A stretch of DNA of 64,000 nucleotides from an uncultured archaeon (GTDB lineage: Archaea; Asgardarchaeota; Lokiarchaeia; Sigyniarchaeales; SOKP01). The number at the start of each line of letters is the position of its first letter. Positions within the stretch are counted from its first letter, which is position 1. The notes beneath the pieces are model-generated. The model searched no databases. It saw only the letters and a list, made by a program, of their open reading frames with translations, and had not been told where the DNA came from. The position numbers were made by a program, and so were the translations under genes. The stretch spans positions 56,312 to 120,311 of the forward strand of contig CAZALK010000017.1 in the NCBI GenBank assembly GCA_964486045.1, written 5' to 3'. Shown in pieces: positions 40,067 through 58,261 of the stretch.

Positions 40067-40678
40067 TTAATCTTGTAATTTAGAAAGAAGCGTCAGCTCC
40101 GCGATTTTGTGGAAAATGCTAGAAACATTTTCACCGGTCAATGCCGATGTCTCAAAAAGAGGGGCATTTAATTTTTGGGATAAATGTTCTGCCATAGGTA
40201 ATATAATCTTTTTCTCATCCGTCAAATCTATTTTATTTCCTATCAAAACTCGTGGAATTCCACTCAATCCATACTTTACAGAGGTGCTATACCAATTATT
40301 TACATTAGAAAATGAGCTAGAACGCGTTGTATCATAAACCAATATCATTCCATCTGCTCCGTTGAAGTATGGACGATGTAACATGTAAAATTGAGGCTGT
40401 CCAGCTATATCCCAAATCATCAAGGAGACTTCGGTTTCCTTACCCATGTCATTATTAACCATAACTTTCTCTTTAGTGATATTCACACCAACGGTAGGGA
40501 TATATTCAAATTGAAACTTTTCAGCACTGAAGTTCTTGAGTAAGGATGACTTCCCTACAGCGGGGTCTCCGATTACGATGATTGTTTTCTAGATTTGATA
40601 AATTCAAATATACTTGAAAATCATCTCGGTCCGCTCGTGAAATATTAGATCTTCATCAGAATTATTATTTTGGGTCAT
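40067..40678 (-). CDS. Rab-like small GTPase, split by a 30-nt BHB intron: join(40614..40678,40067..40583), 193 aa
   Basis: Spliced: MTQNNNSDEDLIFHERTEMIFK|IIVIGDPAVGKS...YIPTVG...WDIAGQ...NKID...TSAL. The track ORF 40067..40486 lacks G1/G2. Confidence 0.88.
40584..40613 (-). other. Putative bulge-helix-bulge (tRNA-type) mRNA intron, 30 nt
   Basis: GAUGAU-UUUC-AA^G-UAUAUUUGA-auuua-UCAAAUCUA-GAAA-AC^A-AUCAUC; contains in-frame TGA and TAG. Confidence 0.85.
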
Positions 40679-56546: not shown

Positions 56547-58261
56547 TTGAAGGTGAAAATTATCGAGCTCGAAAAACCAGGCAAAAAAGGATTTGAAATC
56601 GCTGAGGAAATGGAGCGTAGAAAGTCCACCGAGGAGAAACTCCAAAAAGGGTTGAAATACGAGAAACGACATCAAGATTGGACCTATAAACTTATGAAAT
56701 TCAATCCTATCGATCCATTGAATGATTTATATCGTTTTATCGTTAAGCGATTAGACTTAAAGCAAATAGAAGGCCGGCTTCAATGGTGGAGTGCCTATTA
56801 CTCCTGGCTCAGTTAGAGCAGAGTGGGCAAATCTACATCAGATGGGCGGCACGTATTTTCTGGAACTTTAAGATAGAATACCCTAAAGGAAATATGTTTC
56901 CAGAATGGGGTCCAGGAATCCTTGTAGGCTCACATGAGAGCCATTTGGACCCGTTCTTCTACGGATCGGCTTGTCAAAGACGTATCCGCTACATGAGTAA
57001 GCTTGATAATTTTAAGACACCAATTGTAAAAACTCTCTTTAATAATCTCGGAGCTTTCAAAGTTGATCGTGAAAATCCCGAACGAGGGTGGCAAAAAGCA
57101 AAAGAAATATTGTTAGGCGGCGAATGTATAGGAATATTTCCAGAGGGTACACGTTCTAAGGATGGAACCATTGGAGAATTTAAGACAGGAGCGGTAAGAC
57201 TGGCAGTTGAGATGCAGGTTCCTATTATTCCCATGGCAGTTATCGGTTCGAGGAATGCATTACCTAAAGGTAATTTAGTAATGAAACCGACCCAAGTAAA
57301 AGTACGTGTTGGTGATCCTATTTCTTATTCTGATTATGATATCAATTCTGTTTCTTATAATGATATTAAACGGTTAACTGATGAATTAAGGAATAATGTC
57401 TGGGAATTACGTGAGGGAGTTTATGGTAAAGAAGAGGATAAAGAACTTTCAATCGGCTCACCTGAAGAATTTCCAAAAGAATCCAAATTTAATATCATGC
57501 GTTATTTGAAAGATCAAGCTATAGGTGCTGTAACACTCATTGATGATATCTGGTATGGGCTTTTAAGAAGTCTAGAAGAGTTTGGAGCACGCGAAATATT
57601 ACAAAAACCTATGCAGGCGTTATCAGGGGAAGTGGTTTGTGGTTGGTCAGATCTCATGATGCCATATAAAGTTATAAATTTTAGAAAATATATCCCTCAA
57701 GAAGGCGCAGCTCTTATATGTCCAAGTCATAATTCTGAATGGGACGTACTTTTACTGGCAGCAAGCATAATCCATCACCCACCAAGACGCGTTGCGTACC
57801 AAATGGCAAAGCAATCACTTTTTAAGATTCCTCTCGTAAACGCTTGGGTAAGAAATCATCATGCTTTTCCATTAAAACGAGGGATGCATGATGTAGGTTC
57901 ATTTAATTACGCGAGGGAACTTCTTGAGCAAGGGAAGATAGTTATTACTTATCCAGAGGGTACTACTAATACAGGGAATGGTCAATTATTAGAAGGACAT
58001 ACTGGCCCAATGCGCTTGGCAATCCAGGCACAGGTGCCTATTATTCCTCTAGGCATAACGGGAAGCGAGAACATATACGCCAAACACGCAAAAATGCTCA
58101 CTTTTTATAAAGGGTGTGTCTTAAAAGCTGGGGAACCGTTTTTGGAGCATCAACAATATTGGGGCAAACGAGTGCCTGATTATGATGAACTTAAGAGATT
58201 GACAGTTAATATGATGAGTCGGATAAGAAAATTATTATTGTATGATACACCGGATGCCTAA
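56547..58261 (+). CDS. Tandem two-domain PlsC-type lysophospholipid acyltransferase, probably join(56547..56798,56831..58261), ~560 aa
   Basis: SHESHLD/FPEGTRS and SHNSEWD/YPEGT; track ORFs 56547..56816 and 56783..58261 join after removal of a BHB-bounded insert. Confidence 0.75.
56799..56830 (+). other. Putative BHB/BHL-type mRNA intron, 32 nt (register uncertain)
   Basis: GCCU/GGGC central helix, AUU and AAA bulges, ACUC/GAGU and GCUC/GAGC inner stems, outer UGGUG.AG/CU.CAUCA. Confidence 0.6.

What the first reader, a model, noticed from the sequence alone, without database searches (positions are those of the whole stretch)
56784..56840. Second candidate BHB intron: a frameshifting insert in a tandem PlsC acyltransferase
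Seen: ORF 56547..56816 (...EGRLQWWSAY) and ORF 56783..58261 (...IYIRWAARIFWNFKI) are in different frames and need 3n+2 nt removed. The joined N-terminal helix lines up with the protein's own second domain (QWWSAY..RWAARIFWNFKI versus QALSGEVVCGWSDLMMPYKV). The junction folds into outer helix UGGUG.AG/CU.CAUCA, a central helix around GCC/GGC, and inner stems ACUC/GAGU and GCUC-aguua-GAGC. Register B (bulges AUU and AAA, both starting with A as in the Rab intron, with a U-U mismatch closing the outer helix) excises 32 nt (56799-56830) and restores the frame (SAY|IYIRW). Register A (bulges UAU and AAU) excises 34 nt and does not. Inference: a second mRNA intron; the slippable register could be regulatory or need a relaxed-specificity endonuclease.
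Basis: partly seen in the sequence, partly recalled or inferred. Interest (0 to 1): 0.88.

Follow-up and report, generated by a model that had tools for sequence, protein, structure and literature searches.

The report
tRNA-type mini-intron in Lokiarchaeal acyltransferase gene
A 32-base hairpin insert that breaks a lipid acyltransferase gene of a Loki-type Asgard archaeon is very probably a true intron cut out of the mRNA by the tRNA-splicing enzyme, a process the papers searched report inside a coding sequence only for one crenarchaeal gene (cbf5).

Summary
The tandem PlsC acyltransferase gene is split at 56799-56830. About 120 Asgard homologues are continuous (550-560 aa), and removing exactly these 32 nt gives SAY|IYIRW with no gap.

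It is not an assembly artefact. A contig from a second sample carries the insert. Fourteen distinct alleles from independent metagenomes and MAGs, including Lokiarchaeum GC14_75, have an insert at the same codon boundary (30, 31, 32, 33, 35 or 46 nt).

All fit the bulge-helix-bulge rule: a 4-bp central helix between two 3-nt bulges, cut after the second nucleotide of each bulge. In the 13 alleles aligned, 91% of pair cells pair, against 30-46% when the partners are slid. Ten of 20 pairs show double changes.

The gene is under purifying selection (dN/dS 0.04-0.11; about 0.1 on the window's own branch). The genome encodes an alpha/beta-type EndA pair and RtcB.

No RNA run was available, so splicing itself is inferred.

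It is slightly more stable in silico but is not conserved.

This scan has already found and followed up the same kind of intron in other Asgard genomes. I found no paper on it.

The parts
56553..56798 (+). Exon 1 of the tandem PlsC-type acyltransferase gene. It encodes the N-terminal ~82 aa, ending ...IEGRLQWWSAY. The start is probably GTG 56553; TTG 56547 is also possible.
   Evidence: Homologues have this region fused to the acyltransferase body. The database gene call from a near-identical strain, P0122, starts MKIIELEK.
56799..56830 (+). 32-nt intron (phase 0) with an in-frame TAG at 56814-56816. It folds as inner helix 56800-56803/56821-56824, apical stem 56807-56810/56816-56819 and loop 56811-56815.
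   Evidence: Length and position are fixed by gapless alignment to intronless homologues. Structure.
56831..58261 (+). Exon 2: IYIRWAAR... through two PF01553 acyltransferase domains (HX4D motifs HESHLD and HNSEWD) to the stop codon.
   Evidence: Pfam PF01553, E 1.2e-53, two stretches. 79-85% identity to 555-aa homologues over 97% of its length.
56793..56796 (+). 5' strand of the 4-bp central BHB helix (GCCU, exonic). It pairs with GGGC 56825-56828 (intronic); U56796-G56825 is a wobble pair.
   Evidence: Pairable in 13 of 13 aligned alleles, with a C-G to U-A double change.
56797..56799 (+). 5' bulge AUU. The predicted cut is between 56798 and 56799.
   Evidence: The rule of cutting after bulge nucleotide 2 reproduces the homology-defined junction.
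56825..56828 (+). 3' strand of the central helix (GGGC, intronic).
56829..56831 (+). 3' bulge AAA. The predicted cut is between 56830 and 56831.
   Evidence: The first two bulge bases are AA in 11 of the 13 aligned alleles (AU and AC in the other two).
56784..56791 (+). 5' strand of the outer (exon-exon) helix UGGUGGAG. It pairs with CUACAUCA 56833-56840 with one G-A mismatch. U56792 faces U56832 (mismatch).
   Evidence: helix 1: 92% of cells paired.
56833..56840 (+). 3' strand of the outer helix (in exon 2).

Best explanation
The gene is one gene: a ~560-aa tandem PlsC-type acyltransferase interrupted in the DNA by a 32-nt archaeal bulge-helix-bulge (hBHBh') intron at 56799-56830. In the pre-mRNA, exon 1 bases GCCU pair with intron bases GGGC to form the 4-bp central helix, flanked by the 3-nt bulges AUU and AAA on opposite strands. 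An exon-exon outer helix and an intronic hairpin complete the motif. The organism's heteromeric splicing endonuclease (EndA alpha plus beta) cuts after the second nucleotide of each bulge, and RtcB joins the exons to give ...GCC UAU|AUC UAC... (SAY|IYIRW). What is shown: the insert is in the DNA; its exact length and site; the structure and its covariation; purifying selection on the exons; and the presence of EndA and RtcB. What is inferred: the cutting and joining themselves, and the choice of register B in this particular allele.
For: (1) About 120 homologues are continuous 550-560-aa proteins. The window matches them without a gap only if exactly 56799-56830 is removed.
(2) A 27,954-nt contig from a second sample (run X2, depth about 80) carries the insert with no indel.
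(3) Fourteen distinct alleles have an insert of 30, 31, 32, 33, 35 or 46 nt at the same [Y/F]|[I/V] codon boundary. They include a second species of the genus (G005), Lokiarchaeum GC14_75 (annotated there as hypothetical protein Lokiarch_08790 plus a separate 492-aa gene) and JGI/ENA metagenomes. Removing each insert restores the frame.
(4) All alleles fit one rule. Exon bases -6..-3 pair with intron bases -6..-3 in 13 of 13 aligned alleles and in the 14th. The variants are GCCU/GGGC, GCUU/GAGC, GCUU/GGGU, GCCU/AGGU and GCCU/GGGU.
(5) Covariation: 91.1% of cells pair against 30-46% in the slid controls. Ten of 20 pairs have changes on both sides. None of 500 shuffles reaches the observed covariation score.
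(6) dN/dS is 0.04-0.11 between intron-bearing alleles and about 0.1 on the window's terminal branch. The spliced frames are full length.
(7) The genome encodes two ~200-aa EndA paralogues, one matching the catalytic half and one the structural half of fused EndA, plus one RtcB. This agrees with the (alpha-beta)2 EndA with L1 loop reported for Asgard (PMC5829648).
(8) Precedent: the cbf5 pre-mRNA BHB intron of Crenarchaeota (PMC2738675).
Against: There is no RNA evidence of any kind. In this allele the naked-RNA energies favour the out-of-frame register A (-18.8 kcal/mol) over register B (-17.2). Both lose to a hybrid MFE fold (-21.3) with a 5-bp helix and a 2-nt 3' bulge. The outer helix has a U-U mismatch next to the bulge and a G-A mismatch further out. 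The z-score of the local fold is modest (-1.5 to -2.0). The alleles are related, so the shuffle statistics overstate independence. A loosely defined BHB motif is common in this AT-rich genome, so the motif alone is weak evidence.
Confidence: 0.85

Rival explanations
1. The intron is real, but this particular allele is cut mostly in register A (34 nt), or in both registers. Much of the mRNA would then become out of frame, and the allele would be leaky, down-regulated or on its way to decay.
For: Register A has four Watson-Crick central pairs, a better outer closing pair and a 5-bp inner helix. It is about 1.6 kcal/mol (about 13-fold) more stable than register B in silico and scores higher by pair count.
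Against: Omega is about 0.1 on the window's own terminal branch, and the same allele is present at high depth in two samples. Register A is impossible in the other alleles, so the enzyme-substrate system evolved around register B. In the MFE fold the 5' bulge is the register-B one. The enzyme, not free-RNA energy, selects the conformer.
Confidence: 0.1
2. These are two separately translated genes with no splicing. An 87-89-aa N-terminal peptide ends at the TAG in the insert. A 492-aa acyltransferase is made from ATG 56783, which lies in the overlap, and the two may assemble.
For: ATG 56783 is in frame with ORF2, and gene callers made this call here and in Lokiarchaeum GC14_75. Nine of the 13 aligned alleles have lengths of 3n+2, which would put that ATG in frame.
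Against: The ATG is a by-product of the conserved CAA-TGG-TGG (QWW) codons and is also present in intronless genes. Alleles of 30, 31, 33 and 46 nt put it out of frame, and gene callers there fall back on starts that cut into the domain (422-455 aa). This model does not explain conservation and covariation of a BHB fold. The break lies inside a conserved hydrophobic segment that is continuous in 37 of the 39 genus genomes that carry the gene.
Confidence: 0.04
3. The gene is a pseudogene, inactivated by a small hairpin insertion (a decaying gene or a miniature mobile element).
For: The reading frame is broken. The insert is a hairpin. Only 2 of the 39 species genomes of the genus that carry the gene have the insert.
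Against: There is no further damage. dN/dS is 0.04-0.11, including on the window's branch. Fourteen alleles of different length sit at the identical site. The insert has no other copy in the genome and no target-site duplication.
Confidence: 0.03
4. The break is handled at translation by ribosomal bypassing (hopping) or programmed frameshifting, or it is an assembly or sequencing error.
For: A -1 shift or one missing base would also join the two frames in this allele.
Against: Homologues show 32 extra bases, not one missing base. Insert lengths include 3n values with in-frame stops. The take-off and landing codons do not match. Independent samples and assemblies carry the insert.
Confidence: 0.01

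Closest known systems
cbf5 pre-mRNA BHB intron of Crenarchaeota (Desulfurococcales and Sulfolobales; Watanabe 2002, Yoshinari 2006, Yokobori 2009 = PMC2738675)
   Same: A short intron inside a protein-coding sequence with a BHB-like exon-intron structure, which must be removed to make the protein. The host has a heteromeric EndA. Presence and absence are lineage-specific, and annotation pipelines mis-call the gene.
   Different: The gene here is a PlsC-type acyltransferase and the phylum is Asgard/Lokiarchaeia. Splicing was shown experimentally for cbf5 but only inferred here. The state is patchier and rarer here: 2 of the 39 species genomes of the genus that carry the gene have the insert, and the gene tree needs at least 6 changes of state. 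Many length variants sit at this one site.
Archaeal pre-tRNA and pre-rRNA BHB introns (hBHBh' motif; Marck and Grosjean 2003)
   Same: The same geometry: two 3-nt bulges on opposite strands, 4 bp apart, cut after bulge nucleotide 2. The central helix is made of 5' exon paired with the 3' end of the intron. The enzymes are the same (EndA, RtcB).
   Different: The substrate is an mRNA, so the junction must also keep the reading frame. The outer helix is built from codons (QWW... / ...YI) rather than from a tRNA stem.
BHB element in the 5' UTR of Haloferax volcanii HVO_1309 mRNA (PMC7714728)
   Same: An mRNA substrate of the archaeal splicing endonuclease.
   Different: That element is in the untranslated leader. 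This one interrupts the coding sequence.
IRE1/RtcB splicing of XBP1/HAC1 mRNA in eukaryotes
   Same: Non-spliceosomal excision of a short frame-changing intron from an mRNA, followed by RtcB-type ligation.
   Different: The endonuclease (IRE1) and its recognition motif (twin stem-loops) differ. That system is stress-regulated, and no regulation is shown here.

Membership tests
Archaeal BHB (hBHBh') intron spliced by EndA and RtcB | Two 3-nt bulges on opposite strands separated by a 4-bp helix | tested here: met
   GCCU/GGGC lies between AUU and AAA. One pair is a U-G wobble. The same geometry is found in 14 alleles. In this allele a competing register exists.
Archaeal BHB (hBHBh') intron spliced by EndA and RtcB | Flanking outer (h) and inner (h') helices | tested here: met
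   The inner helix is 4 bp plus a 4-bp apical stem. The outer helix has 7 of 9 positions paired, with a U-U mismatch next to the bulge.
Archaeal BHB (hBHBh') intron spliced by EndA and RtcB | Cutting after the second bulge nucleotide on each side gives a functional mature RNA | tested here: met
   In silico only. The rule gives 56798|56831, which is exactly the gapless junction seen in intronless homologues. The same rule restores the frame in all alleles of 30-46 nt.
Archaeal BHB (hBHBh') intron spliced by EndA and RtcB | Structure kept by compensatory changes among homologous introns | tested here: met
   91.1% of cells pair against 30-46% when slid. Ten of 20 pairs changed on both sides. 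The central helix pairs in 100% of cells.
Archaeal BHB (hBHBh') intron spliced by EndA and RtcB | The host encodes the splicing endonuclease and the RtcB ligase | tested here: met
   PF01974 hits at C7:36595 and C10:137165, each a ~200-aa ORF; one is alpha-like and one beta-like by NCBIfam. PF01139 hit at C1:512216.
Archaeal BHB (hBHBh') intron spliced by EndA and RtcB | Excision and exon ligation observed in RNA (spliced junction, free or circular intron) | not testable with these tools
   No RNA run was listed for this DNA. The exact spliced junction was not found in metagenome contigs.
PlsC / lysophospholipid acyltransferase (PF01553) | Acyltransferase domain with the HX4D catalytic motif | tested here: met
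   PF01553, E 1.2e-53, two stretches. TIGR00530, E 2.9e-47, on the homologue. HESHLD and HNSEWD are read. Activity was not tested.

The most novel reading that the evidence does not exclude
This intron is one locus of a lineage-wide, evolutionarily active population of tRNA-type mini-introns in Lokiarchaeial mRNAs that are gained, lost or exchanged between strains. At this one site the intron is polyphyletic on the exon tree. A near-identical intron (91%) sits in three lineages whose exons are only about 75% identical. A pair of 96%-identical genes differs by two introns at once. If true, Asgard archaea would have a working, dynamic protein-gene intron system that is independent of the spliceosome.
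Probability: 0.4. Interest if true: 0.9.

Novelty: new member of a known kind. Interest (0 to 1): 0.78.

Why it matters
In the papers I could search, endonuclease-dependent splicing inside an archaeal coding sequence is documented only for cbf5 of Crenarchaeota (PMC2738675; PMC7714728 says so explicitly). Here an ordinary metabolic gene of an Asgard archaeon, the closest prokaryotic relatives of eukaryotes, needs the same processing.

The many natural alleles of this intron give a ready-made mutational series for testing how EndA chooses its cut sites on an mRNA.

It also matters in practice. Public annotations split this gene into a "hypothetical protein" and a truncated acyltransferase (for example Lokiarch_08790), so gene inventories and lipid-pathway inferences for Asgard archaea are affected.

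The presence/absence pattern bears on how introns are gained and lost without a spliceosome.

Tried and rejected
**RNA evidence.** No RNA holder was listed for the 1-kb stretch or for the gene. Only DNA contigs could be laid. An exact search for the window's spliced junction in metagenome contigs found nothing.

**Genome-wide census.** I scanned both strands of the 5.18-Mb genome for BHB geometry (1.2 million loose candidates). I then asked whether excision joins two open frames of at least 60 codons, with the 3' boundary shifted by 1 or 2 nt as a control. There was no excess of frame-restoring sites at any stringency, and no peak at 28-35 nt. I judge the scan insensitive rather than negative, for three reasons:
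- Loose BHBs occur about once per 9 nt, so any ORF pair is "rescued" in every shift class.
- Adjacent same-strand genes dominate the hits.
- Introns near the 5' end, such as the Rab one with a 4-codon exon 1, are excluded by the 60-codon rule.

The scan gives no estimate of intron number.

**Ranking by pair count.** Ranking BHB candidates around the site by pair count was checked for six alleles before the script failed. In the five where the true site met the filter it ranked only 2nd to 24th; in G005 it did not meet the filter. The motif alone does not find the intron; homology does.

**Mobility.** The intron has no second copy in the genome. A 16-nt match on C13 lies inside an RNA polymerase coding region and is chance. 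No recombination tract is visible around the junction between the window and alleles with similar introns.

**Frameshifting, bypassing and assembly error** are rejected (see rival explanations).

**Literature.** Six full-text searches found no paper on BHB introns in Asgard protein-coding genes.

Full report
**The observation.** The + strand at 56547-58261 holds two overlapping open frames. One is frame 0, ending at TAG 56814-56816. The other is frame 2, open from 56747 with an ATG at 56783. ORF2 carries two PF01553 acyltransferase domains (E 1.2e-53). ORF1 has no Pfam match. Removing 56799-56830 (32 nt) joins them as ...IEGRLQWWSAY|IYIRWAARIFWNFK.... Removing 34 nt gives stops.

**Homologues decide the length.** A search with ORF2 returned 404 relatives, and the best 120 are listed. 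Nearly all are 550-560 aa and cover 97% of ORF2 at 59-85% identity, with about 75 extra N-terminal residues. Their sequences read ...IEGRLQWW(A/G)A(Y/F)IYIKWAAR.... This is ORF1 plus ORF2 joined exactly as in "register B", with no gap. Sliding the 32-nt window by one to three bases gives a stop or replaces a conserved residue. The extra DNA is therefore 32 nt between the Y and I codons (phase 0).

**It is in the DNA and it is not unique.**
- A 27,954-nt contig from another sample of the same study covers the stretch with one SNP and no indel.
- Among 54 species genomes of the genus, 39 have the gene. In 37 it is continuous, and in one further species (G005) it is split at the same codon.
- A search with ORF1 found 16 more short N-terminal ORFs that stop just after QWWxA(Y/F). 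One is Lokiarch_08790 of Lokiarchaeum GC14_75.
- Their contigs and a pattern scan give 14 distinct alleles.
- Their inserts are 30, 31, 32 (seven alleles), 33, 35 or 46 nt at the identical boundary. Sequences range from 34% to 94% pairwise identity.
- Lengths that are multiples of three carry in-frame stops.

**Structure.** I used established knowledge of the archaeal hBHBh' motif: two 3-nt bulges 4 bp apart, each cut after its second nucleotide, with the central helix formed by the 5' exon and the 3' end of the intron. From this I wrote the rule in coordinates counted from the homology-defined junctions.
- All 13 aligned alleles form the 4-bp central helix, and so does the 14th.
- One position switches C-G to U-A, and others switch between Watson-Crick and wobble pairs.
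- On the MAFFT alignment, 91.1% of pair cells are standard pairs, against 30-46% when the partners are slid by 1-3 columns.
- Ten of 20 pairs changed on both sides, and none of 500 shuffles reaches the covariation score.
- The alleles are related, so these figures overstate independence. However, the inner and apical stems are almost completely re-written between allele classes while staying paired.
- The MFE fold of the GC14_75 allele comes closest to the textbook motif: two 3-nt bulges, but 3 central pairs, because C-G replaces the U-G wobble.

**The gene is alive.**
- Spliced frames are full length in seven alleles.
- dN/dS is 0.04-0.11 between intron-bearing alleles.
- It is about 0.1 on the window's own terminal branch by three-taxon decomposition. 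dS is partly saturated.
- A pseudogene is therefore very unlikely, and the insert must be dealt with during expression.

**The machinery.**
- The genome has two EndA-family ORFs of 201 and 200 aa. One matches the catalytic half and the other the structural half of fused EndAs. It also has one RtcB.
- This is the (alpha-beta)2 architecture reported for Asgard archaea and linked to broad substrate range (PMC5829648).
- ARAGORN finds only 31 tRNA genes, 20 of them with predicted introns. The enzyme is therefore heavily used, as a 2026 preprint describes for some Asgard archaea (10.64898/2026.10.13.758758).

**The register question.**
- In this allele only, the base before the central helix is U (Ser codon AGU). 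This allows a second BHB one step outward (UGCC/GGCA) that would excise 34 nt and break the frame.
- ViennaRNA gives -18.8 kcal/mol for that conformer, -17.2 for the in-frame one and -21.3 for a hybrid MFE fold.
- The other alleles have A or G at that base and cannot form register A.
- Register B is therefore the conserved, functional one, and a regulatory role for slippage has no comparative support.
- Which bonds EndA cuts in this allele remains open. I give about 10% to substantial mis-splicing.

**Evolution.**
- On an exon-only DNA tree (29 rows, all with at least 230 codons; shorter fragments left out), intron presence needs at least 6 changes.
- A single clade of intron-bearers is rejected (AU p 7.5e-60).
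- The window's intron is 91% identical to those of GC14_75 and L041, although the exons are only about 75% identical to GC14_75 (dS saturated) and comparably divergent from L041, and the three are not a clade (AU p 3e-5). I named that group after seeing the tree.
- L037 and the intronless gene of G015 are 96% identical, yet L037 has this intron and a second one 150 nt downstream.
- This pattern points to repeated precise loss, to lateral exchange, or to both. I could not separate these.

**Comparison and novelty.**
- The closest known case is the cbf5 pre-mRNA intron of Crenarchaeota.
- A 2020 study states that this was the only coding example known (PMC7714728).
- My six literature searches found nothing on Asgard mRNAs.
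- Earlier follow-ups in this scan reached the same reading for other genes in other Asgard genomes. One cites an RNA-derived contig lacking exactly its intron. I did not test those reports.
- I therefore file this as a new member of a known kind. It is well supported by comparative evidence but not yet shown in RNA.

Noticed in passing
window 40584-40613 (- strand): A Rab-like small GTPase gene is interrupted after its 4th codon by a 30-nt insert with two in-frame stops. Removing it gives MIFK|IIVIGDPAVGKSS, a normal strand-beta1/P-loop start.
   Followed up: partly
L037:696-725: The allele from GCA_975963255.1 has a second, 30-nt insert right after the HX4D motif (HESHIDP|FFYG). It has a 10-bp hairpin and an in-frame TAA. 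Its MFE fold has only a 3-bp central helix (CCC/GGG) between bulges AUA and CAU, so the strict cut rule would remove 29 nt, not 30. It is a relaxed or unexplained variant. The 96%-identical gene of G015 lacks both inserts.
   Followed up: partly
L043:493-538: The 46-nt allele looks like the L033-type intron with its hairpin partly duplicated (GCUUCGGCUUAGAAGCC followed by AUUUCGGCUUAGAU). This hints at how length variants arise.
   Followed up: no
window 56799-56830 compared with L031:2738-2769 and L041:1358-1389: The intron sequence is 91% identical between lineages whose exons are only about 75% identical, with synonymous sites saturated. Meanwhile the window's nearest exon relatives carry quite different introns (54-69% identity). 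The cause could be sequence-level constraint or lateral exchange of the intron; it is unexplained.
   Followed up: partly
G000 whole genome: ARAGORN finds only 31 tRNA genes in a 99%-complete genome. Twenty have predicted introns of 6-964 nt, and several are mis-typed as Pyl or Stop. This fits heavily interrupted tRNA genes that standard tools miss.
   Followed up: no
window 56796-56948, run X8: A 489-nt contig of a diverged relative from another marine-sediment study replaces 151 nt of the window by 119 nt, that is 32 nt fewer. This is consistent with an intronless relative.
   Followed up: no
L031:2501-4200 (GCA_000986845.1, JYIM01000081.1): The public annotation of Lokiarchaeum GC14_75 splits this gene into hypothetical protein Lokiarch_08790 (84 aa) and a separate 492-aa acyltransferase. 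This is an annotation error caused by the intron.
   Followed up: yes
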